Shown in pieces: positions 536 to 52,779 of a DNA stretch of 61,862 bases. The position numbers were made by a program, and so were the translations under genes. The stretch is taken from positions 1 through 61,862 of IMG/VR virus record IMGVR_UViG_3300037502_000606. One strand, written 5' to 3'. Position 1 is the stretch's first letter; the number at the start of each line of letters is the position of its first letter. The notes below the pieces were generated by a model, which saw nothing but the letters and a program-made list of their open reading frames with translations, did not search any database and had not been told where the DNA came from. This DNA comes from a virus. Its lineage: Duplodnaviria; Caudoviricetes.

Positions 536-576
536 CAGCAGCCTTATATTTCTTAGCTAAGAGTTGGCTTTTCCTC
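90..576 (-). mobile_element. Endonuclease insertion cassette with a recoded 3' end of its target gene
   Basis: 487 bp here replace 42 bp (61694-61735) in the empty allele. Confidence 0.85.
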
Positions 577-31333: not shown

Positions 31334-31783
31334 ATGCTCTACCTTGGAATTGACCCTGGATTCACCGGTGCATGGGGCCTTGTAAATCATCGAGGAGACT
31401 TCGTTGCCTGCGGGGATATGAAGCATAACGACCGCTGGATAGACACCAATCAAGTGTCCCGAGACATCATGCAGGCCAGGCAATTAGACGATGTGATGGT
31501 GGTGGTGGAGGCCGTACACGCTATGCCCAAGCAGGGCGTATCAAGCTCCTTCAAGTTTGGGATGGCCTATGGCGCTGCCATTGCAATCGCAACGCGGTTC
31601 TCTCAGTTTGAACTTGTTCCGCCCAGGGTCTGGAAGAAGGATATGGGACTGACGGCAGACAAGAAGGACAGCCTGGTCATGGCCCGAGAGCTATGGCCAG
31701 ACTCCCCTCTTGAAAGAGTGAAGGATAACGGCAGGGCAGAAGCCCTTCTCCTAGCTGAGTGGCTACGGAGAGCTTATCTCTGA
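31334..31783 (+). CDS. RuvC-like Holliday junction resolvase
   Basis: LGIDPGFTGA, VVEAV, SSFKFG, P.VWKK, GRAEALLLA. Confidence 0.88.
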   Translation: MLYLGIDPGFTGAWGLVNHRGDFVACGDMKHNDRWIDTNQVSRDIMQARQLDDVMVVVEAVHAMPKQGVSSSFKFGMAYGAAIAIATRFSQFELVPPRVWKKDMGLTADKKDSLVMARELWPDSPLERVKDNGRAEALLLAEWLRRAYL

Positions 31784-34700: not shown

Positions 34701-37700
34701 CAGACTTAAACCGCTCCCACTGAGTACCTAGCTTGGCAGCAAAGAGCTTCTCAGCATTGATCGCCCAATATTCTGATGGACTGAGGTACTGATAGAAGTC
34801 ATAAGACGGCATGGATTGGACAGCCGCAGCAAAGGACGCATCACTAGGAGTATCTAAGAACTCGATGACATTCTTAAAAAACGCCTGTGACTGAGCATCT
34901 TTGTTCTTTTTGACCGCCGCATCAAAGGCGCTTCTCCAGGAATCCAAGACAACCTTCTTCTGTTCAGCGGTCATCATCTGCTCAAGCGAGTGCATGATTT
35001 CGTGACGGACAGTAGAAGGATCTTCAATCCCCGACGTTCCATTCCATAGAGTCACCACCCTAGCAAACGGCTGGAAGTTTCCTGAAGACTTGTCTTCCTT
35101 TGGTTTCCTGACAGACAGACGCAGACCGTTGAGAACCCACGGCGTCTTAACATACGCATCACGGATAGTCGCTAACACCTCTGGGCTGAGATCACCCTTC
35201 TCATAGGCATCAAGAGCACGACGCAGGAAGTTCTCAGGACTACGGGAAGGTTCAGCGGTGGCATCAATGTCTTCTTTGAGCTGCTTGGCAAGCTCATCTG
35301 TAAGAGCAATGTTGCGCTGCAATTCAATGCTTGGACCCTGGGCTACGTATTCTTTGACTAGCTGGCTGCGCTTAGCACGGAGACGGGTGTACTCAACAAT
35401 CTGCTCGTCCCTTGATGCAATACGTCCAGCATCAACTTCAACCTCTGTTACAGGAGTCGTAGCATCAATGTTGTAGAGGAAGTTCTGCTTGGAACCATAC
35501 TCAACACCACGGGCCAAGATCATGTTACCGATCTGGAGAACTGCATCAGCCTTGACCACTGGAAGAGTAGTGGCCCTATCAAAGAAGTAGGCATGTCTTG
35601 TCGGATCAAAACCTAACTGGACATACCGTGGATCTTTAATAGCCTGCTGCGCCATTTGATAGGCTTCGGCTGGAGATACGTTGACGTACTCCCCTTCCAT
35701 GGTCTGAAGGGCATCTTTGGCCTGGCCAGCGGCAATCTCTAGGGCTTTGGCCTGATTGCTCAGAGCAAACGTAACATTCTTTACCATCGCTACGCTGCGG
35801 TATCCAATGGCTAAACCAGGCTTTGCCGACGTTGATTTAGGCCGGCCCTCATGTATGGATACAACGAACGTCTTGTGATTGTTCCAGGCTGGTATGTCTA
35901 AGCGCAGACCAACCTTGGTTCCATCGGGGATAGATACGTTCGCCTTGGGCTTCTTGTCTGAGGACAGGGCATTGACTACCTGCTCATCGGTCGCAGGGAC
36001 AAGCGGCTCTGTATAGACGGGGATAGGACGATACTTGTTGACCGCTGCGTCGTATTCCTCTTTGGTAAGCAGGCCAGCCTGGAGCTGTTCAGCCATAGCA
36101 GCAAGCTCAGGTGAACGCCCAGGAGGTAGCTTCTTCTTAGCCTTGGGGAGTTCTTCGTTTATCTGGTTAAGAGTCTTGGCGTCATCACCAAAGAGATCTG
36201 TCTGGGGGCTGGCTACGTCTATGGTAATAGTTTCTTTAGCCTCCACAGATCTTGGGCTTACCTTGGTTCTTCCAAGCTCTCTCAAATCTTTATCTAGCTC
36301 GACCAACGGACTAGAAAGCAACTTATCTGAGGTGCTAACAAGAGCTTCAAGCGCAGATAAAGTGTTTGTCGGAAGACCAAGTATGCGACGAGCAATATCT
36401 ACCAGCTTGCCAAAAGCTGTAAATTGTTTACTTACTTGGATGTCTTTTAAGTAATTTTGAACATCACCCTCAGACATCCCCATTGCCATCAATTCATCTA
36501 TGTTTGATAGCGTGTACGTAACTTTAAAAATGAATTTTTCATCTTTAACCGGATCGTACTTGTTTGCTTTTAATTCTTCTCTAAACTTGGTTCTCAGTTC
36601 TTGACGAAGACTTTCAAGTTCTTTTATTCGTGGATCTGATTTTTTTAGCCCCGCTGTCTGGATAACTGTTGCCGCATGAATCAGCTCATGCAAAATAGTT
36701 TGATACTCCAGCCCATTGCCGCGAGGCGCCTTTTTTCCTTGCACCAAACCATTCAGGCGATAGTCAAACTTGAATCCATCTATGTTCAGTCTGTAAGTTA
36801 CCTTGCCCTTATATCCTTGGACACGACGGCTGTCGTTAAGGATGATTGGGCCATTCATCTCTATACCGCGAGAAGAAAAATCCTTGATTCTGTTTTTAAT
36901 CTTGGATGCTATTTCTTTCGCTAGTTCGTTTGGCGCGTTATCAACTGCCCACTTAGCCAACCCAGGTACATCTAGTTTTTTTATCTCGTCATAAATCTGT
37001 TCCGCAGATTTTTCTATCTCCGCTTTAAATTCTTTTGGAGCTGGTGGCTCGGGTGGCTTGACCTCTGTAGGTTCACCAAATAAATCTGGCTCTTGTTCTA
37101 TTTCTTTGAGAGACTCAAATACCTGATCTAGCGTAGGCCGAGGAGGAACCTGCCCAAACATATCTGGCTCTTGCGATACCTGGCTTGCATCCATGGCCGC
37201 ATCGGCAAGACGAGATAGTCCTTCAGCAATGCGCTTGGTAGAACGCCCACTGTCAGCAATGAACTCCATGATCTTCTGGGCATATGGGTCTAATCCAATA
37301 GCGCCCTGCTTCACAAAGGTGGGCATTTCCTTGATAGGAACGCCCTGGCGTACAGCAGATACAAGGTTCTCAATACCCTCTACAACCTTGGAGCGAATGT
37401 CGTAATCGCCCGCCCCTGATAGTTTGACCATCTTTGGAGCAACCTTAGCCAGACTGTTGAGATACATCTTTGCGTCTGGGTTTGTGGTTGCTGCGTACAG
37501 ATCTATAAGCGCATCATTCTCATAGGCGCCGTAGAAGATGGCGTTTAACAGTCGAGCACTAGCCTCCGGGGTTGGAAGCCCGGTGGACTTGTTAATTAAC
37601 TCTGACTGCTCACTCTCCGGCATGGCCTGGATGAACTGTCTCAGAGTAGAGAGCTGCGGGACTCCCTCTTCGGTGAATTGCAAACCAGTAAGGTCGAACT

Positions 37701-39846
37701 TACCAGCAAGCCTATTGAGGTCGTTCTTCGCCCTGTCTACAGGTTCAAGTCCAGCGATACCAGATACGTTTGATAAGTCGCCAATGTTTTCCGGTACCAG
37801 CCCTTTCGGCATGATCCGAACGAGGACTGGGTTTGGTATGGCAGCGATGACCTCTTGACTGACACCATGAGAAGGATCGTTGATTAGTTCATTACGATAC
37901 TTATCTGTCGTCTTGCGGTTGTATGCCTCTTGTATTCCAGCGATACGACCATTGCCAGCGACGGCCCTGATACCAGGGACACTTAAGTCTCCGTAAAATG
38001 GATTGACTGTTCCATCTGCAAGGTTAGACGTAAACACTTCTGTTGCCGGTACGACTGCATAGCGAACTGGGAATCTCTGCCCATTAGACGCCGTGGCCAT
38101 ATCAGTACGTCCAAGAAACTCACTTGGGATGTTTATGTCACTGATGATTACAGGAGCACCTTCAGCCAAAACCTTGGACGGGCCAACGAGTGAGTAGTCT
38201 GGTGCTGATGCAATCTTCTGCATCTGAGCAACCGACCCTTTCCCAGACCTATCGCGGTTCTGGAATATCGTCTGAGCATTTGGTACCTGCCCCTGAAAAT
38301 AGTTATCCAGAGCTTGCTGTTCTTCCGGCGTGAACTCCGTCGGCTTTATCGTAGGTGGAACACCAGGCGTCGTGCCTGTTGGGATGGATGGAGGAGTCAA
38401 TCCAGAAGTAGGAGGAACACCGGTCGGTGGTGTCGGCGTAGTACCAACAGGAACCATGGGCGGCGTAGGCGTCGTTGAAACCGGCGTTGTTGGTGGAGTG
38501 GGAGTTGCAGGAGGAGTGGGCGCCGTTGGCGGAGCAAAGGTGGCTGGATTTACACCAACGAGCATTGCCGCCGTTGAATTGGCGCCATCAAAGTCATCGA
38601 ATATACCGGCATCAGAAGACTGCCCAGAGTTCCCATCTACGTATATGACCTGGAACCTCCCATCTGGTGTTGGAGTTATCCTCACCTCGACGTTGTTTCC
38701 AGCGTCTGCATATCCACCAAGAAGGTCTGGCCCTGGAGAAAGAGGTACGACTGGAGCGGCCCCAGGAGCAGCGCCCGTGGGAGTTACAGGAGTAACTGCG
38801 GCTGGTGGTGCAGCAGGCGTCGGTGCAGCGGCAGCTGGCGGAGTTGCGGTAGGAGGGATAGGAGGAGCGGCAGGACCAGCTTCACCAGCAGCTCCAATAC
38901 CAGCACCCAGAGCACCACCTGCAATAGCCTCTAATGCAGCCTGACCAGCTACGCCTCGAAATGTCGGTACATCAAGCCCTTCTCTTTGAGCAGCAATGTT
39001 AGCCGCCAATTGTTCCTGTCCAGCCTGAATAGCCTCTGGAACAGCCTCTGTCACGCCGGTTTCTACCGCCTGACGAACAGCGCCCTTTTGAGCAGCCTGT
39101 TGAGCCGCTTGCTTTGCCGCGATCTTTCCAAGAATGTATTTCTCAACACCAGTCCTACCAGCAACAGCACCAAGAGCCGTGCCGGCAAGAATCATGTCAA
39201 GGTTTTCACCGCCGTACTCTTGAGCAGCTATAGCCCGCTCTTCAGCTTCCTTCTCTGATGCGCCGGCCTTCTTAAGTTCTTCTTTGACGGTGTCATATAT
39301 CGTGCCTTTGACTACGCCAGCGCCCGTCAATCCAGCGGTGGTAACTAAGCCTGGCAAACCAGCAACGGCGCCCAACAGAATAGGAACGGACGATCCAGCA
39401 GCTTGAGCAAGGAAGTCAACCGGAGCCGTGGCAAATGCAGATAGCGCGGCTTTAAGTTGTTCACCAAGTCCCTTGTCTTCCGCATCCTTCATGATGGCGG
39501 CAATCGCCTGAGAGTCCTGTTTGGACTGTGCAGACGCTAGTTCAGCAAGGTACTTCTCTACGCCACGAATGTTTTGAGCAGCAGCATTGTTGGCACCAAA
39601 TGCTTCCGTAATAGCGCGGGTCGTTGATACAGTCCCTTCAGCAATTTTAAGAGGAACGTCAAGAACTTCCCTGGTAAAAGACTCTGGCTTGGCCGCTTCA
39701 GCAAACTGTTTCGGCGTTACTCCAAAGACGGACTCAAGGAATCCTTTTTCTTCTGGCGGCTTAATCCCAATGCCAGTTAGATACTTGTCTGGATCAAATT
39801 CTGTCGAACTAATCCCCCGCAGGTATGCGTCTGGATCGAAAGCCAT
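31774..39846 (-). CDS. Large polyvalent ejected protein (ddrB-like ParB, two HExxH zincin-like domains, LPD38-like C-terminus)
   Basis: FDPDxYL x2 at N-terminus, hydrophobic G/A region, P/T linker, QNRDRS...AGNGR, HELIH, HEIMH, NLTVNFNRKG...LYAFFNAS. Confidence 0.8.
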   Translation of the reverse strand: MAFDPDAYLRGISSTEFDPDKYLTGIGIKPPEEKGFLESVFGVTPKQFAEAAKPESFTREVLDVPLKIAEGTVSTTRAITEAFGANNAAAQNIRGVEKYLAELASAQSKQDSQAIAAIMKDAEDKGLGEQLKAALSAFATAPVDFLAQAAGSSVPILLGAVAGLPGLVTTAGLTGAGVVKGTIYDTVKEELKKAGASEKEAEERAIAAQEYGGENLDMILAGTALGAVAGRTGVEKYILGKIAAKQAAQQAAQKGAVRQAVETGVTEAVPEAIQAGQEQLAANIAAQREGLDVPTFRGVAGQAALEAIAGGALGAGIGAAGEAGPAAPPIPPTATPPAAAAPTPAAPPAAVTPVTPTGAAPGAAPVVPLSPGPDLLGGYADAGNNVEVRITPTPDGRFQVIYVDGNSGQSSDAGIFDDFDGANSTAAMLVGVNPATFAPPTAPTPPATPTPPTTPVSTTPTPPMVPVGTTPTPPTGVPPTSGLTPPSIPTGTTPGVPPTIKPTEFTPEEQQALDNYFQGQVPNAQTIFQNRDRSGKGSVAQMQKIASAPDYSLVGPSKVLAEGAPVIISDINIPSEFLGRTDMATASNGQRFPVRYAVVPATEVFTSNLADGTVNPFYGDLSVPGIRAVAGNGRIAGIQEAYNRKTTDKYRNELINDPSHGVSQEVIAAIPNPVLVRIMPKGLVPENIGDLSNVSGIAGLEPVDRAKNDLNRLAGKFDLTGLQFTEEGVPQLSTLRQFIQAMPESEQSELINKSTGLPTPEASARLLNAIFYGAYENDALIDLYAATTNPDAKMYLNSLAKVAPKMVKLSGAGDYDIRSKVVEGIENLVSAVRQGVPIKEMPTFVKQGAIGLDPYAQKIMEFIADSGRSTKRIAEGLSRLADAAMDASQVSQEPDMFGQVPPRPTLDQVFESLKEIEQEPDLFGEPTEVKPPEPPAPKEFKAEIEKSAEQIYDEIKKLDVPGLAKWAVDNAPNELAKEIASKIKNRIKDFSSRGIEMNGPIILNDSRRVQGYKGKVTYRLNIDGFKFDYRLNGLVQGKKAPRGNGLEYQTILHELIHAATVIQTAGLKKSDPRIKELESLRQELRTKFREELKANKYDPVKDEKFIFKVTYTLSNIDELMAMGMSEGDVQNYLKDIQVSKQFTAFGKLVDIARRILGLPTNTLSALEALVSTSDKLLSSPLVELDKDLRELGRTKVSPRSVEAKETITIDVASPQTDLFGDDAKTLNQINEELPKAKKKLPPGRSPELAAMAEQLQAGLLTKEEYDAAVNKYRPIPVYTEPLVPATDEQVVNALSSDKKPKANVSIPDGTKVGLRLDIPAWNNHKTFVVSIHEGRPKSTSAKPGLAIGYRSVAMVKNVTFALSNQAKALEIAAGQAKDALQTMEGEYVNVSPAEAYQMAQQAIKDPRYVQLGFDPTRHAYFFDRATTLPVVKADAVLQIGNMILARGVEYGSKQNFLYNIDATTPVTEVEVDAGRIASRDEQIVEYTRLRAKRSQLVKEYVAQGPSIELQRNIALTDELAKQLKEDIDATAEPSRSPENFLRRALDAYEKGDLSPEVLATIRDAYVKTPWVLNGLRLSVRKPKEDKSSGNFQPFARVVTLWNGTSGIEDPSTVRHEIMHSLEQMMTAEQKKVVLDSWRSAFDAAVKKNKDAQSQAFFKNVIEFLDTPSDASFAAAVQSMPSYDFYQYLSPSEYWAINAEKLFAAKLGTQWERFKSAVRKLIESMKKVFGFDNRLGVHKVFDRLMKDQPERMDNKSLVDFVTETGVRAMVPQNVSKNIFGQPMPKATWGSPDESKIDDILYVLQDKNIDTKRVVQKITAQRKSLIDSWNPYLQEELYHGRTAKQTEDFLKDELEPLMKALRDRKLTMDQVEEYLQNRHAEERNIQNAKRDPTMPDGGSGILTADAKKYLAALTPQQKKAFDDVAKMVDDIVKGTQDLIVSSGQEKQEVIDNWNKAYKHYVPLNREEADYDVKNVGVGVGSGFAIKGPFSRASVGSGRKVVDILANVAMQRERAIIRAEKLRVAKAVYALAVTNPNPGFWLPYDPYIKKDPQQLINDLISMGINPSDAQNIANTPTRRDVDPATNTVKEVPNERLITSALSLPIRINGEEKFLIFNSKDPRAVRMVESLKNLDVDQLSKALSISQAFTQYFAKINTQYNPIFGGINFLRDVQGAMLQLSTTPIAGKQKQVLAGVMPALRGIYGEERAKRKGQPSTNRPWAQLWEEFQKEGAQTGFRDMFSRSQERAEALQRILDPSSWTKSKLGKIFTAGGTLKVPAEIARKAATPLFDWLSDYNQTMENAVRLSAYKVALDQGMTKQQAASVAKNLTVNFNRKGQIGRQMGALYAFFNASVQGTVRMYDTLKGPAGIKIIGGGIILGILQAMALAAAGFDEDEPPEFVKERNIVLPIGGSKYITIPMPLGYNVIPNTSRIATEWAISGFKDTPKRISSILSATLDMFNPLGNAGWSAQTITPTALDPVIALTENVDWTGKPIAKEDISGLDPTPGYTRARETASIVGKGLSEFLNYASGGTKYTPGVVSPTPDQIDYLIGQFTGGVGREVMKVEQTLRSQVTGEDLPIYKVPLIGRFVGDTQGLAAERNRFYNNIMQLNKHEREIKGRRENRENVQEYLMDNPDARLFSYANQVERNLQALRKRRDALLEKDAPKEQVKAVENQIAVQMKRFNDRVAAAQR

Positions 39847-41399
39847 TATTTAACTCCAAGATGTTCTTTAATCTGCTTTGCCCTTGGGTCATTCGGATTT
39901 GAGTTTGCCCACGCTAATGCTTGTTGATCTTGCGTAGATAAGGCAGTTTTTCCAGGGGCGCCTCGTTGAGCTGCCCTGTATCTCCGGTCGTCTTCCACCA
40001 TCTGACGGGCACGGCTTTCTATAGTGCCTTCAGCGCCTATGTCTTGTCTGGCGGCAGCTAGAGCGTCCTTCATGGTCAACGGACGATCTCCAATAGCAGT
40101 CTGGAATCCTGTGAACGTTGGCTCTTCACCTTTAGCTTTAGCCTCACGTGAGTACAGTTTCCACTGTTTATCGAAGTCTGTAAGTTTTGAACCATATGCC
40201 GCCCGAGCCAAACGCTCCTGCGCCTCGGTGGTAAGCATCGTCTTGGCAAGATCTGCTTTGAGTTGGTCAAACTTCTCAGCCTTCTTGTCAGCCCGCTCTT
40301 GAGCCTTATCAATGGTGCCTTGAGTGATCTTGGCTTTACCCATGGCAGCTTCATTCTGCTTGAGCATAAGGTTCTGCTCGGCCAGTTTGAACTCACGCTC
40401 AGCCTTCTGTAGATCCTTGATGTCAGAGGCGAGTCCCTTCAAGCCAGGTGCTGCGCCCTTGCCAATGTTCTCAAAGGCGTTAGGCGATGTGCCAGCCATG
40501 ATCCCAAGGCCCATCTCAAGGAGACGGAAGTTACGTGCCTCGACCTTATCTTTGGCCAGAGATTCACGCTGCGATGCAATCTCTCTCTGAATGTTTCCAA
40601 GAACATTCTCGTCATATCCAGATGCTTTGAGAAGGTCGCTTGTCTGCTTACCAGCCTGTTCAATGGTCGGAATCGGGGTGGCTTCTTCAGTCCCACGGAG
40701 GGCCGTAGCCATCTCACCAGCCCGCTTAATGATCGGGGAGATAGGAATAGACGAGATACCAGCATCAGGCATGGCTTTCTCTTCATCCATCTCGGGGGCA
40801 ATGCCTGTGTCTTTGGGCGGAGTGCCTGGTACGCCTGTACCCTGCCGAGCAAACTTAGCTGCTTCCCTATCCATGTCTGCGCCGGCAATACCCTGATTGG
40901 GAGTCATTGGAACGCCTGTTCCTTGACGCGCAAACTTTGCCGCCTCGCTGTCTCTTAACTGAGCAAGGAGTTGCTCTCGTCTTTCAGGTGGCGCACTTGC
41001 ATATGCCTGCCGAATAAAGTTGGCATTGATAGATGGATCGCGCTGCACCAAAGAATTAATGGCTTGCTCCAGGAGCATCTCATCGGACTGAACCTTATCT
41101 CCTGCACTGAACGCTACGATGCCACCACCTGCGAACTCTGGTGTCTCGATGGGGATCTGGTCTATGCCGCCATCAACCATCTGGGCCTGGTCCATGACCT
41201 GTTCGGCAATGGTGGGCTGCTGACCCTGAGCCATGCGGGCTGCTGCGGCTGAACGCATCCTCTGTTCAAACTGGATCTTCTCTTCCAGGAGAGGAACGCC
41301 CATATAGGCCGGGATAGTCCCAGACTGAATGGCCTGCTGAAGCTGCGGGATGCTGAGCTTTTCTGCCGTCTGAACACGGCTGAGTGTGCTTCCGATCAT
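39846..41399 (-). CDS. Internal virion/ejection protein
   Basis: PTIAEQV, FAGGGIVAF, helical; duplicated EAAKFARQGTGVP. Confidence 0.72.
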   Translation of the reverse strand: MIGSTLSRVQTAEKLSIPQLQQAIQSGTIPAYMGVPLLEEKIQFEQRMRSAAAARMAQGQQPTIAEQVMDQAQMVDGGIDQIPIETPEFAGGGIVAFSAGDKVQSDEMLLEQAINSLVQRDPSINANFIRQAYASAPPERREQLLAQLRDSEAAKFARQGTGVPMTPNQGIAGADMDREAAKFARQGTGVPGTPPKDTGIAPEMDEEKAMPDAGISSIPISPIIKRAGEMATALRGTEEATPIPTIEQAGKQTSDLLKASGYDENVLGNIQREIASQRESLAKDKVEARNFRLLEMGLGIMAGTSPNAFENIGKGAAPGLKGLASDIKDLQKAEREFKLAEQNLMLKQNEAAMGKAKITQGTIDKAQERADKKAEKFDQLKADLAKTMLTTEAQERLARAAYGSKLTDFDKQWKLYSREAKAKGEEPTFTGFQTAIGDRPLTMKDALAAARQDIGAEGTIESRARQMVEDDRRYRAAQRGAPGKTALSTQDQQALAWANSNPNDPRAKQIKEHLGVK

Positions 41400-42967
41400 G
41401 CTGCCACCTTTTTCATAGCTTTCTTCAGTGCTAGGGAGTCTATACCTTCTTTAATCTCGCCTCCCTTCTTCTTTCCGGTTGCCATGCCGTATGCTGCCGC
41501 ACCTGTAAGTCCGAGACCAGCAAGTTGAGAGACGGGGCTTGGGGAAGCCTGGTACTGAGATACCGTAGTGACCGGCGTCTGGTATCCGCGTAGTAAGGCG
41601 TTGTATGCGGCAAGCTGCTGCTGCGGGTACTGCTGCGCCATCGCATAGTTTTGGATTGCCTGATTGATCATCTGTTGCTGCTGCTCTTGCTGCGTTGCAC
41701 CTACCTGCTGCTGGAACTGCATCCGAGCCAAGTCTGCTGCCTGTTGCTGCTGAGCAATATCTGCGAGTGACCGGCCCATCTGACCCATAAGGCCGTATCC
41801 AGCCTGAGCACCAGATACCCCTTGAAGGCCAACACCCGCCCCTTGCATACCTGCTTGAGCACCTTGGATGCCAACACCAGCACCTTGCATACCAAGTCCA
41901 TAAAGTTGACCGGCCTGTCCAAGCCCACGAAGCCCAGCCTCTTGACCACTTATTGCCTGGCCAATACCAGAGAGTCCTAGCTGACCACCCTGAAGAGCGG
42001 TTCCAAGTCCTGCCTGGGCACCTTGGAGTCCCTGCATACCAGCCGTAACACCAAACTGTTGTGCCTGCTGAGCTTGTTCAAACGCCCGCTGGAGTCCTTG
42101 AGCTTGAATGTCGCTGAGCTGTTGTTGTAGGCCGGCCTCCCTCTGTCCTTGGAGAAGCGCCTGACGAGCGCCACCGTATGTACCCGTCCTAACCGCTCCA
42201 AGGTTCTGACCTAGTTGAGCACGTTGAGCGTCATCAATCGCCTTGCGTTTAGCAACCTCTGTGACACCTTGTTGATACGGAGACATGTAGGCTTGGATAG
42301 ACCGTGGGTCTGTTGCCATGCGCTCATAGGTACCACTCATACTTGCTGCTTGACGAGCATACTGGCGAGCTTCTTCGCCTACGTCACGGCCAAGCTCTTC
42401 TGCACGGAGACCCATCGAACCAATGTCTGCTGCGGTACGGCCATATAACTGAGCTTCAGGAGCCATGCCGGCGCCCATCATTCCGTATCCAGCACCTAGG
42501 CCGCCAAACCGAGATCCTTGAGCGCCGTATCCAGCACCCATCTGGCCGTAGTCATATGCTGCACCAGCACTACCCATGCCGCCCATACCAGCACCACCAA
42601 CCATTTGTTGGCCAACACCAAACCCACCAGGCCGTTGCATCTGGGATGCTTCATACATTACCTGTTGTTGCTGTGGGCTAAACGGGGCAAAGTAATCTCG
42701 GGGATCTGCGCTATACGGAACGAATGGTTTGACACCAGTGATCTCATAAGTGCCCTCTGGAGTCTTCTGAGTCTGGAAGGTCTCTTGTGTTGCAGCACCA
42801 AGAAGCGCTTCAGTCTGAGGTCTTAACCAATCAGGGATGGAAGATTGAGTGACCGTGCTAGTCGTGTGACCGCCGCCACCACTACCGCCACCCTCTAGGG
42901 TCATGCCGCCAAATGGCCGCTTTTGGAAAGCCCGTTCGGGCAGCATTGAAAAGTGATCGTATCTCAT
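41396..42967 (-). CDS. Internal virion/DNA-transfer protein
   Basis: Leader then GGGSGGGG; YMSPYQQ; G/Q/A-rich; C-terminal hydrophobic stretch then KKKGG. Confidence 0.75.
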   Translation of the reverse strand: MRYDHFSMLPERAFQKRPFGGMTLEGGGSGGGGHTTSTVTQSSIPDWLRPQTEALLGAATQETFQTQKTPEGTYEITGVKPFVPYSADPRDYFAPFSPQQQQVMYEASQMQRPGGFGVGQQMVGGAGMGGMGSAGAAYDYGQMGAGYGAQGSRFGGLGAGYGMMGAGMAPEAQLYGRTAADIGSMGLRAEELGRDVGEEARQYARQAASMSGTYERMATDPRSIQAYMSPYQQGVTEVAKRKAIDDAQRAQLGQNLGAVRTGTYGGARQALLQGQREAGLQQQLSDIQAQGLQRAFEQAQQAQQFGVTAGMQGLQGAQAGLGTALQGGQLGLSGIGQAISGQEAGLRGLGQAGQLYGLGMQGAGVGIQGAQAGMQGAGVGLQGVSGAQAGYGLMGQMGRSLADIAQQQQAADLARMQFQQQVGATQQEQQQQMINQAIQNYAMAQQYPQQQLAAYNALLRGYQTPVTTVSQYQASPSPVSQLAGLGLTGAAAYGMATGKKKGGEIKEGIDSLALKKAMKKVAA

Positions 42968-43395
42968 AGTTGTACTTCCACTAAAGTAGTTCGTGGCTCA
43001 AAGCCGTATCTCTTCCACAATCGAACGATAGATTCTCTACCGTACCCTTGGACTTTTGTCGCCCCGCGCTGCTTTAGAATCATCTTCAGCTGCTCAAACG
43101 TGTTGCTATTGGAGATCATCCGACCTCCTATCAGTGTGATGAACGCTACCCTGGCCATCGGATAGTTCGCAAATGACACTGTTGCGGCACCGTGGATCTT
43201 TCCTTCCTCATCTACCGCTACCAACAACAACCACATACCGCTAGTCAGAAACCCCTGGACATGATGAATGTTGTAACAGTTACTCCAGTCAGGGGCGTCG
43301 TTATCTTTTATTAGTGCATCTATTAAATACTGGTCTACCTGATTCCAAATCTGGCTGATGTAGTTTGTATCTACAACCTGGATGTTTAGGTTCAT
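42964..43395 (-). CDS. GNAT-fold-like morphogenesis protein
   Basis: AFITLIGG...GATKVQGYGRESIVRLW..YGF; upstream of ejection genes. Confidence 0.6.
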   Translation of the reverse strand: MNLNIQVVDTNYISQIWNQVDQYLIDALIKDNDAPDWSNCYNIHHVQGFLTSGMWLLLVAVDEEGKIHGAATVSFANYPMARVAFITLIGGRMISNSNTFEQLKMILKQRGATKVQGYGRESIVRLWKRYGFEPRTTLVEVQL

Positions 43396-44186
43396 TTTCT
43401 AAGAAGAGCGTCTATACCACCATAGTTCTGCTTTCTTACCCGACCTCCGCCTTTGAACACTCCTGCTCCATCGCTATCGGCGCCCATTCCAACGCCAACA
43501 CCACTATCTCCTGGACCCATGCCACCAGTTGATGTTGCCCCTTCTGGTCCTACGCTACCTGGACCGCTATATCCACCACCAACAGCAGCAGAAGATGGTC
43601 CCCCACCAATGCCGCCGTCTCCGTATCCGCCACCACCACCGTCAGATGGCGTTGCGCCAATCGACCCACCAGGATTCCCAAACATATTTTGTCTTGCATC
43701 AATCTGAGATTGAGTCATGTATGGAATAGGCCGATATTGAGTCTGCACCGGCATGGGGGGTCTCATGGGTTGGAACGTTGCTTCTGGTCCAGTTGGAAGT
43801 TCATAGTTAATAGGCGCCCCACCGAGCATTCCGTGGTCCATTGCTCGCGGCTCTGTCAGGTACGTTGCTTGGCCACCAAACATGTCCCCGTAGTTGGTAA
43901 ACATGCCTCTAGGCGCCATGCCCATTCGCTGGCCACCCATTTGAAGCCCTCTGCCACGCCCCATCATCCCCATCATCGGCGGTTGATAAAACCCACCAAA
44001 GGGCGCTTGGCCGTAACCAAACGGGGAGAACTGAGCATAGCTAGGCTGATAGATCGGCTGATAAAACTGTTGGTTTGGACCAAACGGCATGTAGTCAGGC
44101 CGGCGTGAAGCGGTGTATGGGTCGTAATAAGGACTTTGTGGCTGGTACATTTGGTTAGATATTGCCCCGGCTGAAATTCCGCCCAT
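43392..44186 (-). CDS. Low-complexity Y/Q/P/G/M-rich protein
   Basis: GGAG RBS; ATGA overlap; ends FKGGGRV...GGIDALLRK. Confidence 0.7.
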   Translation of the reverse strand: MGGISAGAISNQMYQPQSPYYDPYTASRRPDYMPFGPNQQFYQPIYQPSYAQFSPFGYGQAPFGGFYQPPMMGMMGRGRGLQMGGQRMGMAPRGMFTNYGDMFGGQATYLTEPRAMDHGMLGGAPINYELPTGPEATFQPMRPPMPVQTQYRPIPYMTQSQIDARQNMFGNPGGSIGATPSDGGGGGYGDGGIGGGPSSAAVGGGYSGPGSVGPEGATSTGGMGPGDSGVGVGMGADSDGAGVFKGGGRVRKQNYGGIDALLRK

Positions 44187-44195
44187 CTCTATCTC

Positions 44196-45116
44196 CTAGG
44201 CTGGCATGTACTTATTGGGGTTGATCTCCTTGCCCTGACGCTTGGTTCCTGTACGAGCTTTGCGAACCTTGTCCATCATGGCGTAGAGCTTACGAGCACC
44301 AGCATCGGTTGACCCGTTGCCAATTCCTGAGACGACATCGGCAGGCACTACAAACTCACCGTCTGCTAAACGAGCGGGCTGCTTAGCCCCAATACGTGCC
44401 GGGATGTTGTCTGACATGCCATCGCCTGGTCCTTTGAGCAACCGTCCACCATCTGAGTAGGAACCAAGATGCCCGCCCCTCATGTAGCGCTGAGCTACTG
44501 CGGAGTCTGCCAGGCCACCACCGGCCATGGCTGAACGATATTTGTCCGGGTCGTAACGGAATCGACTTAGAGGGCCGCTGTATTTTTCTGGCTCAGGAAG
44601 CCCCTCTACGTCATAAGACTGCCCAATCGCTGTAGTAGCTGCGCCCAAACCAGCAGGCATCAATACCGGGTTCCTAGCGTAGAACGAGTTAATCGACGGG
44701 AAAGTAGGAGATCCTGCCGCTGGAGCTTGGGCTGCATTTATTCCCATCTCACCTGGAGTTAAAACACTTAGGTCACTATAAAACGTCGGTGTTGCTGCTG
44801 CCGTACCACCTACATTTCCAGCCCCAACTACTGCTGCCTCTGGAGCCATAGAAGTGGTAATCGGCGCTGCTGAACCTGCTGTAGCTCCGGTTGTTGCACC
44901 CGTGGTGCTTGCTGTGGTTATCGGAGCTGCTGCACTTCCCGCTCCACCAGCTGCCCCAGATGCCGCCCCTGTACCAGCACCGGCAATCCCGGCTCCTACG
45001 CCACCCCCGGCAGCACCAAGAAGCGCCCCTTTGAGTGGATCTCCACCTGTAATGGCAGAAGTACCGGCGCCAGTTACAGCACCAATGATCATTGCCTCGC
45101 CTACGCCCGTACCCAT
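44196..45116 (-). CDS. Ejection-type protein with C-terminal putative peptidase module
   Basis: G/A-rich membrane-like N-terminus; YSDGG.LLKGPGDGMSDNIPA...ARLADGEFVVPADVV. Confidence 0.72.
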   Translation of the reverse strand: MGTGVGEAMIIGAVTGAGTSAITGGDPLKGALLGAAGGGVGAGIAGAGTGAASGAAGGAGSAAAPITTASTTGATTGATAGSAAPITTSMAPEAAVVGAGNVGGTAAATPTFYSDLSVLTPGEMGINAAQAPAAGSPTFPSINSFYARNPVLMPAGLGAATTAIGQSYDVEGLPEPEKYSGPLSRFRYDPDKYRSAMAGGGLADSAVAQRYMRGGHLGSYSDGGRLLKGPGDGMSDNIPARIGAKQPARLADGEFVVPADVVSGIGNGSTDAGARKLYAMMDKVRKARTGTKRQGKEINPNKYMPA

Positions 45117-45171: not shown

Positions 45172-46062
45172 CTAGGTTGTAACCGTGGGTAAAGAACCAG
45201 AAAGCAGGACTGCTTTTACCCCAGGTTTTACGCTTACGCTCTCTACTGCTGATACAAAACTGATTGATCCTATTGCCGACGGTATGGCTGGACGAACATA
45301 CGGGGTTGTCTGTGCGACATCGTGGAACATATATACCCCATCGACAGGCCCGGTCGAGTTATAAGCTTGATCTGTGGCCCAGTAAAGCTCTACTTCATCG
45401 CCAATCTGAACCGTAAAAGTGGCTTCAGAATAGGCTGCTAAATAACCTTCTTCGTTAGGGGATGCACTTTTTCGTGCAGGTATTGTGAAGATTGTTGCTG
45501 AATTAGCTACATCACTACCATTTACCTTCAACCATACGGTAGCGTAGTGAATGGCGTTTGCGGTATTGATGAACTGCAAGCTATACCGAATGGTAAATAC
45601 CCCAGCATAATCCGCTGTTGCAGAACCTGGCGAGTTAAGCGTCCATCCAAAACCTGAGTCCAGGGTATTCCACTTAACCACCGTCGGCGTATCGTTCCCA
45701 CCGGCGATCTGGTCTGTACTATCTGATGCGGAAATGTGTGGAAATACAAGCCTTCTTCCCTGGCCGGCAAAGACTCCACCGTTAAATTGATCCCCGTTGA
45801 AGTTTCCACCATTGAAGTAGTCACCGTTGAAGCTGTCGCCAGTAAAAACCGTTCCAGTAAATGTCCCACCGGTATAGGCTGAACCGGAGAAAATCCCTCC
45901 TATGAACTCGTCTGCTCGATAGGAGTTGGCCTGCTGCGGGGTGAGGGAGTCTAGTTGGTTGAAGTACAGGCGCAGCGCATTGATAAGCTGGTCCATCTGC
46001 TGACGGTCATACTGCTCCCTTGGCAGAGGAAGAGCTGGTGCCCGGAATCCAATAAGCGCCAT
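45172..46062 (-). CDS. Tail needle/spike-like protein with pentapeptide repeats
   Basis: N-terminal helix LRLYFNQLD; (GxxFx) repeats; C1q/TNF-like C-terminal domain. Confidence 0.6.
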   Translation of the reverse strand: MALIGFRAPALPLPREQYDRQQMDQLINALRLYFNQLDSLTPQQANSYRADEFIGGIFSGSAYTGGTFTGTVFTGDSFNGDYFNGGNFNGDQFNGGVFAGQGRRLVFPHISASDSTDQIAGGNDTPTVVKWNTLDSGFGWTLNSPGSATADYAGVFTIRYSLQFINTANAIHYATVWLKVNGSDVANSATIFTIPARKSASPNEEGYLAAYSEATFTVQIGDEVELYWATDQAYNSTGPVDGVYMFHDVAQTTPYVRPAIPSAIGSISFVSAVESVSVKPGVKAVLLSGSLPTVTT

Positions 46063-48279
46063 TTATCTCTTGCCGTCTTCTCGGGCGTCGATCCTGGGCA
46101 TACCAAGTTGCCATTGAACCCCTAGACCATCTGAGCTGATCCGCATAGCCATCTGTCTGCCTCGGGCACGAATGAATACCTGTTCCGTATACTGATCGAC
46201 AGTCGTCTGAATGACCGGTTTTTCGTTCAAAGCATTGTTGGTAAACGCCGCGCCAGGGAAGTTCCTAGCCCGTATGGCCATGGTTACTTCTGGGTTTGCT
46301 GCCGTAGACCCACGGAAATTTACGTCCGGGATCATCCGTTTGGTCAGCATCAGCTTCTCGCCGTCCTCGATGTCAAAGTCTGAAGACTGGATAAACGCCT
46401 CCATCGGGAGATCACCGTCGTTCACTCCTACCTCATGGGTGTAGAGAATCCCTGGGTTTTGATTCTCATCGGTGTAAGTCGCTGTTGGATAGTCCCTGGA
46501 GGACACATCGAGCCAGGACGTTCTGACCATGTTCCCGTAGTACCAGACTTTCTCTAGGTGGTTGAAGACTACATAACGGTCAATCCAGTTGGAGTTTGCG
46601 CTGCAATAGAACCACCAGACTTCGTTGTATCCCTCGTTCGTCCCGCAGATAACCTGGTCTGCTTGATTCAGGTTAATGTCTTTGAAGACGTACTCTCTGA
46701 GAGTACAAGGAAGAGTCTGCACCCGACCATCATAGGCATAGAATTTATCCATCCCCATCCAGTAGGTTACGTTGTTTACGGAGATACAAGACCGTGGGGA
46801 CATGATCGAAATGTTGTCTGCCAGCTCCTGGAGGCCAAATACCTCAATAGTGCCTAGGAACTGGAAGCTATAAACGTGCGTATCTGTGAAGACAATAATC
46901 TCTTGCCTGGTCGGCAGCGCTCGGACAATCCTCGATCCACGGGATACCCGAATGAATCCAGCCGAGTTAGTCAGTAGCGGCGTCCATACGTTTGGCTGAT
47001 CCTGGGTGGCCCAACGAATCAGAAGAGGATCAAATTCGCCTGTAGATCCTGCATATGGCTGACATCCAAAAGCCAGAAGATGCTTATCATTCTGGGATAC
47101 AAGTATTTGGTAAGCGGATTCAGGAACATCGGCCGGGGCCACTCCATCAAGGGTTAGTCCAGACAACAAGACAGCCCTAGTGCTCAGCTCAGCCTGGGCG
47201 TTAACCGTCGTACCACGAACCCAGTAATAGATCGGACCACCGGTAGCTATTCCAGAACCGGTAGTAACCGCCCTAATGTTCATCACCAGGTCATTGTCAA
47301 AGTTATCAAAGAACCAGTCACGCTGAGGTAGATATACGGGCAACGGACTAGCCAGGCCCCATCCAGTTGGAGATGCTACAAGTTGAGCACTATGGGTACC
47401 GCTCTGTGTTCCGCTGGTGTTGATTGCTGCGCCGGCCTGAGTCAACGACAGGCTGCATGTACTACCAGAAGCATTGACAATGTAATAAGCAACACCTGCC
47501 GTCAGCCCAGTTGGAAGGGCGCCGGTCGTGCTCAGAATGATGACTGTGTTATCTACTGGAGTGTGTGTAGCAAAGGTAAGAACAGCCGGGGATGCGATGG
47601 TAACGGTGAACGTTCCGATGGCAGATAAGCCTGTTGTGCCACCAAATCCACCAGTGCCCCAGCCATAACCTGCGGTCTGCAAAGGAAAGCCTGGGTGTAT
47701 CTGACAGCCTACGAATATGGCCGTGCCACCGCCCGTAGTTGTAGAAGTAGCCGCTGTAGATACAACGATCTTAAAGTTGTCGTTATTCGGGACTTCTGTA
47801 ACTTTGTGCTCGGCATTAAGAATTGCACTGGGTATACCGCCTACGTCCGATGCACCAGCTATTGTGATGTAGTCACCTACCAAGCATCCATGCCCAGTGA
47901 TGTTGATATTGACCGTAGTTGAACCATTGGTCGTGTCGATACAGTTATCTGTAGTGGGGGTCTTAAATGTGTATTCCTGATCTGGAGAGGCAAGCGGATT
48001 ACGGATGGGCGTAATGTCGTAGAAGATCCCGCCTACCTCGATGTAGACCTTCTGGTCTGTACCAACCGCTAACAGATTGTCCGTGTAGGACGTAACCCAG
48101 TTCCAGAGCTGACGGCAAGTCCCTAGGAATCTTTCTGACGTTGCCTCAACCCAGCCGCCTAGCTTCTGTGGATACCCTGAGTAGAAACGGATCTTGTCGC
48201 ACTCATAGTAGCCGCCCTCGTTGGCATAGTTCGTTGTATCTCTGTTGATGCCTGGGCGAAGAGTGACTTTTCTTAACAT
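46063..48279 (-). CDS. Tail nozzle/stabilisation protein (P22 gp10-like)
   Basis: PGINR, PQKLGGW, IRWATQD, YWMG..FYAYDG, EVWWFY; inserted beta domains. Confidence 0.75.
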   Translation of the reverse strand: MLRKVTLRPGINRDTTNYANEGGYYECDKIRFYSGYPQKLGGWVEATSERFLGTCRQLWNWVTSYTDNLLAVGTDQKVYIEVGGIFYDITPIRNPLASPDQEYTFKTPTTDNCIDTTNGSTTVNINITGHGCLVGDYITIAGASDVGGIPSAILNAEHKVTEVPNNDNFKIVVSTAATSTTTGGGTAIFVGCQIHPGFPLQTAGYGWGTGGFGGTTGLSAIGTFTVTIASPAVLTFATHTPVDNTVIILSTTGALPTGLTAGVAYYIVNASGSTCSLSLTQAGAAINTSGTQSGTHSAQLVASPTGWGLASPLPVYLPQRDWFFDNFDNDLVMNIRAVTTGSGIATGGPIYYWVRGTTVNAQAELSTRAVLLSGLTLDGVAPADVPESAYQILVSQNDKHLLAFGCQPYAGSTGEFDPLLIRWATQDQPNVWTPLLTNSAGFIRVSRGSRIVRALPTRQEIIVFTDTHVYSFQFLGTIEVFGLQELADNISIMSPRSCISVNNVTYWMGMDKFYAYDGRVQTLPCTLREYVFKDINLNQADQVICGTNEGYNEVWWFYCSANSNWIDRYVVFNHLEKVWYYGNMVRTSWLDVSSRDYPTATYTDENQNPGILYTHEVGVNDGDLPMEAFIQSSDFDIEDGEKLMLTKRMIPDVNFRGSTAANPEVTMAIRARNFPGAAFTNNALNEKPVIQTTVDQYTEQVFIRARGRQMAMRISSDGLGVQWQLGMPRIDAREDGKR

Positions 48280-52529: not shown

Positions 52530-52779
52530 TGATAGCATCCTCAATCATCTTCTGCTGGCCTGTGATCTGTTCTATTTGCTCCGGCAACCAGATGGTGTTG
52601 ATAGAGTCCTCAAATGCTTTAATCTTCTCTATCGTCTCTTGTACTTCTTCCCATGTAGGGCAAGGCCGAGGGTCTTCCCACCGTGTAAACATGGTGTTGC
52701 TGATCTCCCACTTAGCCCCAGGACGAAGCAAGTGCATTGCAGTATCAATGCCTACGAGTCGGTATATTTTTGTATCCAT
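52519..52779 (-). CDS. Tail-associated small protein (XkdW-like)
   Basis: LRPGAKW...W.DPRPCPT.EEV. Confidence 0.65.
   Translation of the reverse strand: MDTKIYRLVGIDTAMHLLRPGAKWEISNTMFTRWEDPRPCPTWEEVQETIEKIKAFEDSINTIWLPEQIEQITGQQKMIEDAINAA

What the first reader, a model, noticed from the sequence alone, without database searches (positions are those of the whole stretch)
44230..44530. Stand-alone tape-measure-type processing domain: candidate enzyme for the xxGG tags
Seen: three tags (MAGGG, YMRGG, YSDGG) lead into GPGDGMSDNIPA...ARLADGEFVVPADVV..IG.G. From memory, siphophage tape measure C-termini contain A.GG...GPGT..SD.IPA.LS.GE.V, and lambda gpH has FATGG...HRGEFVF in the region removed during tail maturation. 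This phage has no tape measure gene. Inference: the module has been redeployed as a trans-acting maturation protease or tag receptor for ejection proteins and basic peptides, with conserved S/D/E residues as catalytic candidates. No other head-maturation protease was recognised.
Basis: partly seen in the sequence, partly recalled or inferred. Interest (0 to 1): 0.8.

Follow-up and report, generated by a model that had tools for sequence, protein, structure and literature searches.

The report
Tape-measure end module in a short-tailed phage
The flagged stretch is the very conserved tail end of a floppy, glycine-rich phage protein, and it carries the same short module found near the end of tape measure proteins of long-tailed phages; nothing shows that it is an enzyme.

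Summary
Window 44199-44528 (- strand) encodes MAGGG, YMRGG and YSDGG, then GPGDGMSDNIPA...ARLADGEFVVPADVV, and these positions are invariant or nearly so in relatives. It is not a stand-alone domain. It is the last ~90 residues of a 306-aa Gly/Ala-rich protein (44196-45116, -), lying between tail-type genes and a 2690-aa polyvalent protein in a 61.9-kb phage record.

The module has no Pfam, PHROG or PDB match, yet it is very common: 10,241 cluster representatives match at E<=0.001. It is better conserved than its neighbours.

A ~35-residue core recurs in true tape measure proteins (Mycobacterium, Gordonia, Burkholderia phages) and in proteins beside the portal gene of HMO-2011 and a pelagiphage. 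Lambda gpH has a degenerate copy inside the cut-off fragment gpHC.

The protease or tag-receptor idea has no support. AlphaFold gives mostly disorder, there is no Cys and no conserved His, and lambda lacks the Ser-Asp. My best reading is a free-standing gpHC-like, non-enzymatic module of an ejected protein. Its function remains inferred.

The parts
44196..45116 (-). Gene X: 306-aa Gly/Ala-rich protein carrying the module (TAG stop at 44196-44198)
   Evidence: ORF list and translation. No Pfam or PHROG family. The full-length AlphaFold model has mean pLDDT 51.7.
44976..45116 (-). Conserved N-terminal Gly/Ala-rich, moderately hydrophobic segment (residues 1-47)
   Evidence: Nearly invariant G2...G50 columns in 72 relatives. 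Kyte-Doolittle 19-residue maximum is 1.2, G+A fraction 0.55. It resembles the Gly-rich hydrophobic stretch just before the module in lambda gpH and in the phi1026b TMP.
44607..44975 (-). Variable low-complexity Ala/Gly/Thr/Ser/Pro linker (residues 48-170)
   Evidence: No consensus in this span of A2. pLDDT is below 50. The N-terminal 196 residues find no tblastn match in 11 of 12 related loci.
44535..44582 (-). Conserved middle motif Y-x-GPLS-x-F-x-Y-x-P-x-x-Y (residues 179-194)
   Evidence: Y179, G181, P182, L183, S184, F186, Y188, P190 and Y193 are nearly invariant. It also appears in the A1 consensus.
44514..44528 (-). MAGGG, first hydrophobic-x-x-G-G motif (residues 197-201)
   Evidence: A198, G200 and G201 are invariant.
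44472..44486 (-). YMRGG, second motif (residues 211-215)
   Evidence: G214 and G215 are nearly invariant.
44445..44459 (-). YSDGG, third motif (residues 220-224), which starts the most conserved stretch
   Evidence: Y220, S221, D222, G223 and G224 are invariant. Strong matches of the cluster representatives mostly begin at query residues ~19-20.
44319..44450 (-). Core module shared with tape measure proteins: GG-RLLK-GPGDGMSDNIPA-(8-residue insert)-RLADGEFVVPADVVSGIG (residues 223-266)
   Evidence: Profile search: 8 distinct proteins carrying the core score 17-85 bits, against at most 3.9 bits for the remaining ORFs among the 776 sequences searched. The core is visible in the TMP translations.
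44199..44318 (-). Family-specific C-terminal extension: GNGST-AGA-helix, basic tail, conserved end ...(Y/F)MPA (residues 267-306)
   Evidence: The only confident AlphaFold element is the helix at 75-93 of the 110-aa query. pI is 10.4. In 14 of 16 related loci the frame stops right after this end.
43392..44186 (-). Next gene, 264 aa, Gly/Pro/Gln/Tyr-rich; starts MGGISAG, ends ...NYGGIDALLRK; fused to X-like proteins in some metagenomic relatives
   Evidence: Fused forms are P0069, P0082, P0099 and P0119. It lies in frame with X across the TAG stop.
45172..48279 (-). Upstream neighbours: a 296-aa protein and a 738-aa virion structural protein (phrog_3287)
   Evidence: The same gene order is seen in MinM2, Caulobacter GB2A and DSL-LC04.
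31774..42967 (-). Downstream cassette: 523-aa Gly/Gln-rich protein, 517-aa protein, and a 2690-aa polyvalent protein (ddrB-ParB, LPD38, DarB-like)

Best explanation
Gene X (44196-45116, -) encodes a largely unstructured protein of the internal/ejection-protein cassette of a ~62-kb phage that has no tape measure gene. Its last ~90 residues are an unnamed, very abundant module. The ~35-residue core of that module (GG, GPG-x-G-x-SD-x-IPA, L-A/S-D/N-GEF-V-V-x-A-x-V-V-S) also sits in the C-terminal part of true tape measure proteins (TMPs). There it is flanked by hydrophobic-A-x-G-G motifs and follows a Gly-rich hydrophobic stretch. In lambda this is the part cut off as gpHC.

X is therefore best read as a free-standing 'gpHC-like' protein. 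I think the module is a non-enzymatic interaction element that takes up structure only on a partner. I would expect a short hairpin around IPA...GEFVV, then a basic amphipathic helix and a conserved ...MPA end. It would belong to a protein that lies in, or is expelled through, the DNA exit channel ahead of the genome. On this reading the xxGG motifs are flexible boundary motifs of the same unit, not tags that the module reads.

Shown: the sequence relationships, abundance, conservation, gene context, and the absence of a fold or enzyme signature. Inferred: presence in the virion, ejection, the hairpin, and the partner, which may be a channel protein, the cell wall or a membrane.
For: 1. Core shared with TMPs. 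A 79-column profile built from the window's family, searched against 776 sequences (6 named proteins plus all ORFs of at least 60 aa in six frames of 9 loci), gave E<=2.4e-4 to 8 distinct proteins. These are MinM2, GB2A, DSL-LC04, the MiniMac TMP (two copies), the Gordonia Nina TMP, the phi1026b TMP, HMO-2011 gp49 and HTVC115P gp72. The best other ORF scored 3.9 bits.
2. tblastn of the 110 aa against 50,697 phage records at E<=10 hit 178 records. Of 60 rows sampled evenly, 29 are annotated as tape measure; 28 if the X-like GB2A protein is set aside.
3. Same order of parts as in TMPs. In the phi1026b TMP the module (~1221-1281) follows Tape_meas_lam_C (1112-1185) and a Gly-rich hydrophobic stretch, and it is flanked by LATGG and FAAGG. 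Lambda has Tape_meas_lam_C at 627-701, FATGG at 733, GEFVF at 754-758 and YATGG at 778.
4. Lambda gpH is cut in its Gly-rich C-terminal region into gpH* and a ~14-kDa gpHC. The site and the enzyme are unknown (PMC12617516, passages read).
5. Gene context. X lies after holin, endolysin and two virion-protein genes, and before Gly-rich proteins and a giant polyvalent protein. Three cultured phage groups share this order.
6. Selection. The module is 71-75% identical in loci where the 738-aa virion protein is 43-49% identical. There are 10,241 representatives at E<=0.001 and 1,592 at E<=1e-30. Among the best 150, the matched stretch is 62-90% identical on proteins of 142-913 aa.
7. No enzyme signature. 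No Pfam, PHROG or PDB match. AlphaFold mean pLDDT is 58.8 and 51.7, with only one confident helix. Foldseek found only sequence relatives of unknown function. The protein has 0 Cys and 1 His.
Against: - No experiment or proteome places X in a virion, and I found no paper on its cultured relatives that gives one.
- If the module docked rigidly in the tail tip it should be visible, yet gpH ~690-817 is unresolved in the lambda maps.
- The module's position varies: C-terminal in X, N-terminal in HMO-2011 gp49, and twice inside the MiniMac TMP. That argues against one fixed docking site.
- Siphophages and short-tailed phages share no obvious common partner protein.
- Lambda gpH itself was not picked up by the family profile at E<=10. 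Profile-profile alignment gave only E 0.0024 and probability 12% over 25 columns, so the lambda link rests on motif order.
- The TMP matches are individually weak in a whole-database sense (tblastn E 0.08-9).
- A disordered prediction does not exclude a fold that forms only in an oligomer.
Confidence: 0.45

Rival explanations
1. Processing element in cis. The module with its flanking hydrophobic-A-x-G-G motifs marks, or itself catalyses, a cut that separates segments of channel-forming ejected proteins, as in gpH -> gpH* + gpHC. X would be the already-separated product encoded as its own gene.
For: - Lambda is cut in the Gly-rich region just before the module, by an unknown enzyme at an unknown site (PMC12617516). 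A cut after FATGG would leave 116 aa, 12.2 kDa, against the ~14 kDa reported.
- Gene borders fall at these motifs. X ends at ...YMPA and the next gene starts MGGISAG. In fused relatives a hydrophobic-A-x-G-G motif follows the module within 1-6 residues.
- In the MiniMac TMP two module copies bracket a segment holding an NlpC/P60 domain. T5 pb2 is cut so as to free its muralytic end (PMC10038345).
- Lambdoid tail clusters encode gpK, which has a JAB peptidase domain of the kind predicted to cut after a terminal Gly (PMC1779556). The link from gpK to gpH is my inference, not the paper's.
Against: - T5 pb2 is cut after R1127, not after GG.
- Lambda lacks the Ser-Asp of the core.
- There is no predicted fold.
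- The window holds no JAB, Prok-JAB, NlpC/P60 or C39 match in six frames.
- A mere cleavage site would not need ~90 residues at 75-90% identity.
- No cleavage data exist for any protein of the X family.
Confidence: 0.2
2. Host-envelope element. After ejection the module binds a universal host structure, such as peptidoglycan or the cytoplasmic membrane, and helps the leading end of the ejected protein to cross or anchor in the envelope.
For: - Carriers infect very different hosts (Mycobacterium, Gordonia, Burkholderia, Pseudomonas, Caulobacter, Pelagibacter, cyanobacteria). A phage-side partner is therefore hard to name, while the cell wall and membrane are common to all.
- The module is basic: pI 9.9, and 10.4 for the tail.
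- In the MiniMac TMP it directly follows an NlpC/P60 wall-hydrolase domain.
- The region is unresolved in lambda virions, which fits a role outside the particle.
- X has a Gly-rich hydrophobic N-terminus.
Against: - No similarity to any known wall-binding family.
- No direct evidence of binding.
- N-terminal hydrophobicity (Kyte-Doolittle 1.2) is below that usual for a membrane helix.
Confidence: 0.2
3. One reading: a trans-acting maturation protease, or a receptor that recognises xxGG tags on other virion proteins and basic peptides.
For: - Several other proteins of the window carry xxGG motifs. Examples are MAEGG, MAKGG and RYGG in the 117-aa basic protein at 804-1157; the C-terminus GGIDALLRK of the 264-aa protein; and GGEIKEGIDSL of the 523-aa protein.
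- No head protease was found.
- Conserved Ser, Asp and Glu exist.
Against: - No catalytic fold or family.
- No Cys and no conserved His.
- The Ser-Asp is absent in lambda, and D260 (D64 of the 110-aa query) is not kept in TMP copies.
- In TMPs and fused relatives the motifs sit on the same chain as the module.
- Many short-tailed phages (T7, P22; recalled) need no head protease, so a missing protease creates no vacancy to fill.
Confidence: 0.07

Closest known systems
Lambda gpH C-terminal fragment (gpHC, about residues 690-853)
   Same: Same order of parts: Gly-rich hydrophobic stretch, hydrophobic-A-x-G-G, GEFV strand plus a short LY-x-x-M helix, then a second hydrophobic-A-x-G-G. gpHC is a separate polypeptide in the mature particle (PMC12617516), as X is by gene.
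   Different: Lambda lacks the GPG-x-G-x-SD-x-IPA half. The family profile does not detect it and hhalign gives only 12% probability. gpHC is made by cleavage of an 853-aa tape measure and ends in a coiled coil on gpI. X has its own gene, a long low-complexity linker and a basic ...YMPA end.
Tape measure proteins carrying the full core (Burkholderia phage phi1026b gp14; Mycobacterium phage MiniMac gp17; Gordonia phage Nina gp17)
   Same: The core GPG-x-G-x-SD-S-I-x-A ... S-D/N-GEF-V is aligned by the profile at 14-22 bits per copy. Flanking hydrophobic-A-x-G-G motifs are present.
   Different: These are 1350-1750-aa proteins with TMP_3, TMP_4 and Tape_meas_lam_C or NlpC/P60 domains, set in long-tail gene clusters. 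They lack the 8-residue insert and the GNGST-helix-basic extension of the X family.
X-like proteins of cultured phages (Synechococcus MinM2 / Planktothrix Pag-Yong1 and Pra-JY27; Caulobacter RW/RLK/KcrB/GB2A; DSL-LC04)
   Same: Same gene position and the same module, including the helix (84, 39 and 32 bits).
   Different: They are annotated variously as calcium-binding protein, solute-binding protein, tape measure protein or hypothetical. They are 294, 580 and 759 aa long.
Proteins encoded beside the portal gene in HMO-2011 (gp49) and Pelagibacter phage HTVC115P (gp72)
   Same: They carry the IPA...GEFV core with nearby xxGG motifs.
   Different: They sit in the head gene block, between portal and capsid genes. 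In gp49 the module is at the N-terminus.
Ejection (internal virion) proteins of short-tailed phages such as T7 gp14/15/16 and P22 gp7/16/20
   Same: A comparable gene position after the tail genes, and a comparable presumed job of building the DNA conduit (review PMC8954989, passages read).
   Different: No sequence or family match to them. Virion location and ejection of X are untested.

Membership tests
Unnamed module of tape measure C-terminal regions (no Pfam entry found) | Core GPG-x-G-x-SD-x-I-x-A followed by L/V-S/A-D/N-GE-F/Y-V and a V-V-S-type strand | tested here: met
   The window's family profile aligns this core in 8 distinct proteins at 17-85 bits, against at most 3.9 bits for the remaining ORFs among the 776 sequences searched.
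Unnamed module of tape measure C-terminal regions (no Pfam entry found) | Flanked by hydrophobic-A-x-G-G motifs | tested here: met
   MAGGG, YMRGG and YSDGG lie upstream in X. LATGG/FAAGG in phi1026b and FATGG/YATGG in lambda. 381 such motifs in 150 representatives. In X the downstream motif is missing because the gene ends; fused relatives have it.
Unnamed module of tape measure C-terminal regions (no Pfam entry found) | Preceded by a Gly-rich hydrophobic stretch | tested here: met
   X residues 1-47, though separated from the module by a ~150-residue linker. Compare lambda 690-720 and phi1026b.
Tape measure protein | Recognised TMP family domain (TMP_2, TMP_3, PhageMin_Tail, Tape_meas_lam_C) | tested here: not met
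   No Pfam hit on X at E<=1. PF10145 and PF20155 are absent from the six frames of the record. TMP_2 and Tape_meas_lam_C were checked only through the Pfam scan of X.
Tape measure protein | Long protein in a long-tail gene cluster (tube protein, frameshifted chaperone pair, distal tail and hub proteins) | tested here: not met
   X has 306 aa. Its neighbours are holin, endolysin, virion structural proteins and a giant polyvalent protein. One weak, sub-threshold tail-chaperone hit (Phage_TAC_12, E 0.026) occurs at 49181-49594.
Ejection / internal virion protein of short-tailed phages | Gene lies in the block after the tail genes, beside large ejected proteins | tested here: met
Ejection / internal virion protein of short-tailed phages | Present in the particle and expelled at infection | not testable with these tools
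   No proteome or structure of a relative was found.
Maturation protease (prohead S78/ClpP type, or Gly-Gly-directed JAB/C39 type) | Catalytic fold or family signature with conserved catalytic residues | tested here: not met
   No Pfam, PHROG or PDB match. AlphaFold mean pLDDT 58.8. 0 Cys and 1 variable His. The Ser-Asp is absent in lambda gpH.
Crassvirus cargo protein 1 (PF25725) | Match to the family model | tested here: not met
   Only a feature-space neighbour at 0.84, below the tool's 0.9 lead level. No Pfam hit at E<=1.

The most novel reading that the evidence does not exclude
The hydrophobic-A-x-G-G / GEFV module is a self-contained processing unit. It would direct, or itself catalyse, the cut that matures channel-forming ejected proteins in both long-tailed and short-tailed phages. 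That would explain how lambda gpH becomes gpH*, which the 2025 Ur-lambda paper still lists as unknown. It would also show that tape measure ends and podophage ejection proteins share one ancestral part.
Probability: 0.12. Interest if true: 0.8.

Novelty: new variant of a known kind. Interest (0 to 1): 0.5.

Why it matters
The module is one of the most conserved and most common pieces of sequence in this large group of environmental phages, yet it has no name, family or known function. It links, at sequence level, the far end of tape measure proteins with proteins of phages that have no tape measure. This suggests that this end piece does a job unrelated to measuring tail length. It also lies in exactly the part of lambda gpH that no map resolves, and whose cleavage site and enzyme are still unknown. 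The idea can be tested in lambda itself with standard genetics. A family model of the module would also correct scattered annotations of the same protein ('calcium-binding', 'solute-binding', 'tape measure').

Tried and rejected
- Sequence search of X and of a 53-row profile against PDB chains gave only chance-level rows: colicin E3 at E 0.38 and moesin at E 1.7.
- Foldseek with the low-confidence model found no PDB match at E<=0.001. In BFVD it found only uncharacterised sequence relatives with TM<=0.29.
- A homotrimer prediction of the 110-aa module ended with the verdict 'no answer'. It is not used as evidence either way.
- ESM Atlas returned only unnamed viral clusters, plus a sub-threshold crAss cargo lead.
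- Scanning 185,579 species genomes with two strict peptide patterns found 19 loci, all close relatives on MAG contigs and no prophage TMP. This follows from how strict the patterns were.
- A search of 401 genomes with the 110 aa gave only the known relative plus 9 weak hits. Five of those have internal stops, and none was followed up.
- Searching 5.8 billion proteins with the phi1026b module returned 120 listed rows, all 97-100% identical in the searched stretch and all carrying the same three Pfam TMP domains; those with names are Burkholderia tape measure proteins. This was useless for diversity.
- TAG read-through or recoding joining X to the next ORF is rejected as a general feature. All three stop codons are used in the window. 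In 16 of 16 related loci the frame ends in TGA or TAA, and further stops follow in the same frame.
- Resemblances to the S24/S26 Ser-Lys peptidase motif and to AbrB-type hairpins were considered from memory only. There is no Pfam support, so they were dropped.
- Literal motif strings found no relevant paper.
- Co-occurrence of the module with tag-bearing small proteins was not tested. tblastn of the 117-aa basic protein matched only its first 36 residues, in jumbo phages, which says nothing about the tags.
Full report
WHAT IS THERE

Translating 44199-44528 gives MAGGG, YMRGG and YSDGG. These are followed by GPGDGMSDNIPARIGAKQPARLADGEFVVPADVVSGIGNG, a helix-like stretch and a basic tail ending KYMPA.

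The protein is not a stand-alone domain. In 72 near-length relatives it shows four regions:
- a nearly invariant Gly/Ala-rich, moderately hydrophobic N-terminus (residues 1-47);
- a variable low-complexity linker;
- a conserved Y-x-GPLS-x-F-x-Y-x-P-x-x-Y motif (179-194);
- the invariant C-terminal block.

Hydropathy peaks at 1.2 over the N-terminus. The module is basic, with pI 9.9. The protein has no Cys and one His, and that His is not kept in wider relatives.

THE PHAGE

The window is a whole virus record of 61,862 bases, rated 98% complete. The genes identified are:
- large terminase (10806-12302), portal (8282-10795) and an HK97-type capsid protein (4706-5611);
- M15 endolysin and holin (48280-49181);
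- tail-fibre-like proteins;
- a 738-aa virion structural protein (46063-48279);
- a 2690-aa polyvalent protein with ddrB-ParB, LPD38 and DarB-like parts (31774-39846).

Six-frame family searches of the record found none of the following: PhageMin_Tail, TMP_3, Peptidase_S78, ClpP, Prok-JAB, JAB, NlpC/P60 or C39. Absence rests on these families only.

Gene X sits after the holin, endolysin, 738-aa and 296-aa genes. It sits before a 264-aa Gly/Pro/Gln-rich protein, a 143-aa protein, proteins of 523 and 517 aa, and the giant protein. The same order is seen in Synechococcus phage MinM2, Caulobacter phage GB2A and phage DSL-LC04.

HOW COMMON AND HOW CONSERVED

The last 110 residues match 10,241 representatives of 50%-identity clusters at E<=0.001, and 1,592 at E<=1e-30. 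In the best 150, the matched ~92 residues are 62-90% identical, on proteins of 142 to 913 aa.

In the 5.8-billion-protein set, all 8,000 scored candidates of 168-536 aa passed E<=0.001. Every named row among the 120 listed is 'hypothetical protein', and none has a Pfam domain.

Across related loci the module is 71-75% identical where the 738-aa virion protein is 43-49% identical. The N-terminal 196 residues of X are undetectable in 11 of 12 of these loci.

In 14 of 16 related loci the frame stops directly after a ...(Y/F/M/L)(M/L)P(A/K/R) end. The extreme C-terminus is thus conserved too.

NO KNOWN FAMILY OR FOLD

- Pfam (E<=1) and PHROGs gave nothing for X.
- PDB chains gave nothing, by sequence or by profile.
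- AlphaFold with a 53-row alignment gave mean pLDDT 58.8, with one confident helix at 75-93 of the 110 residues.
- The full protein with 72 rows gave mean pLDDT 51.7.
- Foldseek found only uncharacterised sequence relatives in BFVD, and nothing in the PDB.

THE TAPE MEASURE LINK IS REAL

tblastn of the 110 aa against 50,697 phage records at E<=10 hit 178 records. In a sample of 60 rows spread evenly over the ranking, 29 lie under features annotated as tape measure. The count is 28 if the X-like GB2A protein is left out.

Reading three of them shows the same core:
- Mycobacterium phage MiniMac: ...YAAGGLLRGPGNGTSDSILARLSDGEFV...
- Burkholderia phage phi1026b: ...LATGGAVWGPGTSTSDSIPAQLSNGEFVV...FAAGG...
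- Gordonia phage Nina: ...GGQLIRGPGTGTSDSITA...SNGE...

I built a 79-column profile from the window's family only. I searched it against 776 sequences: 6 named proteins plus every ORF of at least 60 aa in six frames of 9 loci. It gave 17-85 bits to 8 distinct proteins that carry the core, and at most 3.9 bits to the other ORFs in the set. The loci had been chosen through tblastn hits, so this shows specificity within them. It is not an unbiased database-wide significance.

In the phi1026b tape measure protein (TMP) the module follows TMP_3, TMP_4 and Tape_meas_lam_C (1112-1185) and a Gly-rich hydrophobic stretch. The MiniMac TMP has two copies (834-870 and 1334-1369), with an NlpC/P60 domain just before the second.

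The core also occurs outside TMPs, in proteins encoded next to the portal gene. In Pelagibacter phage HTVC115P it is near the C-terminus of gp72. In Puniceispirillum phage HMO-2011 it is near the N-terminus of gp49.

LAMBDA

gpH has Tape_meas_lam_C at 627-701, a Gly-rich hydrophobic stretch, FATGG at 733, HRGEFVF at 752-758, LYRLM, and YATGG at 778. This copy is degenerate. It lacks the GPG...SD...IPA half, the family profile misses it, and hhalign aligns only 25 columns (E 0.0024, probability 12%).

According to the passages I read in PMC12617516:
- gpH loses a ~14-kDa piece from its Gly-rich C-terminal region;
- this piece, gpHC, partly stays in the particle;
- residues ~690-817 are unresolved;
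- only 818-849 are seen, as a trimer on gpI;
- the cleavage site and the enzyme are unknown.

PMC10721106 models the same helix. 'Removed' needs one qualification, because part of gpHC remains in the virion.

WHAT I THINK IT IS

X has the same order of parts as the cut-off end of a lambda-type tape measure: Gly-rich hydrophobic stretch, hydrophobic-x-x-G-G motifs, core module. But it is encoded on its own, in a phage without a tape measure. I read it as a free-standing gpHC-like protein of the ejection-protein set. I read the module as a non-enzymatic interaction element that is unstructured alone.

I give this 0.45. The identity of the module is well supported. Its mode of action is inferred. 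Three things weigh against a fixed docking role: the unresolved state in lambda, the variable position of the module, and the lack of a shared phage partner.

RIVALS

1. A cis processing element (0.2). It fits the position of the lambda cut. A cut after FATGG would leave 12.2 kDa. It also fits gene borders that fall at the motifs and the bracketing of an enzyme domain in MiniMac. Lambdoid tail clusters encode gpK with a JAB peptidase domain (PMC1779556); that it might cut gpH is my inference. Against it: T5 pb2 is cut after an Arg (PMC10038345), the window has no such peptidase, and there is no fold.
2. A host-envelope binding element (0.2). It fits the wide host range of the carriers and the basic charge.
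3. It has no positive evidence. The xxGG motifs sit on the same chain as the module in TMPs and in fused relatives.

COMPARISON AND NOVELTY

The closest known things are lambda gpHC and the C-terminal regions of TMPs that carry the full core. X fails the tests for being a tape measure: it has no TMP domain, it is short, and it is not in a long-tail gene cluster.

I found no Pfam or PHROG family covering the module. I found no paper containing its literal motifs together with 'tape measure'. That search covers only the open library.

I class it as a new variant of a known kind: a tape-measure end module living as a separate protein in phages without a tape measure.

LIMITS

- The list of 10,241 matches could be seen only for its best 150.
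- No unbiased count of TMP against non-TMP carriers was possible.
- No virion proteome of a relative was found.
- Supplements were not consulted.

Noticed in passing
window 44184-44201 (- strand): The TAG stop of X lies in frame with the next ORF (43392-44186), four codons upstream of its ATG. An AGGAG sits ~8 nt before that ATG. Read-through would recreate the module-then-xxGG arrangement seen in fused metagenomic relatives. However, 16 of 16 related loci end in TGA or TAA with no open continuation.
   Followed up: partly
window 516-2573 (- strand): A run of five small Lys/Gly-rich basic proteins (95, 117, 93, 211 and 84 aa) with many xxGG motifs. Two of them end in near-identical SKRADG-x-A-x-RGKT-x-GR tails. 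The first 36 residues of the 117-aa protein are 72% identical to small ORFs of phiKZ-like jumbo phages.
   Followed up: partly
window 31774-39846 (- strand): A 2690-aa polyvalent protein with ddrB-ParB (526-678), LPD38 (2391-2583), DarB-like and weak virion-RNA-polymerase PHROG matches. It is presumably ejected with the DNA.
   Followed up: partly
window 42964-43395 (- strand): A 143-aa protein with no family match sits inside the Gly-rich protein cassette. It is conserved in 5 of 12 related loci (31-64% identity).
   Followed up: no
window 51909-54587 and 57272-58138 (- strand): A 2OG-Fe(II) oxygenase, a 602-aa protein that is 34% glycine (Gly_rich_2 domain), and an MptE-like protein lie among the tail-fibre genes.
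   Followed up: no
L025 (Mycobacterium phage MiniMac tape measure gene): The tape measure protein holds two copies of the module (residues 834-870 and 1334-1369 of the 1626 aa held). An NlpC/P60 domain at 1217-1254 lies just before the second copy.
   Followed up: partly
window 7685-8101 (- strand): A GroES-like protein (phrog_3188; Cpn10 below the Pfam cut-off) is encoded directly after the portal gene. It is followed by proteins of 321 and 161 aa of unknown function, where a scaffold would be expected.
   Followed up: no
L001, L002, L003 (public phage records): The same X-like protein is annotated as 'calcium-binding protein', 'extracellular solute-binding protein', 'tail length tape measure protein' or 'hypothetical' in different records.
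   Followed up: yes
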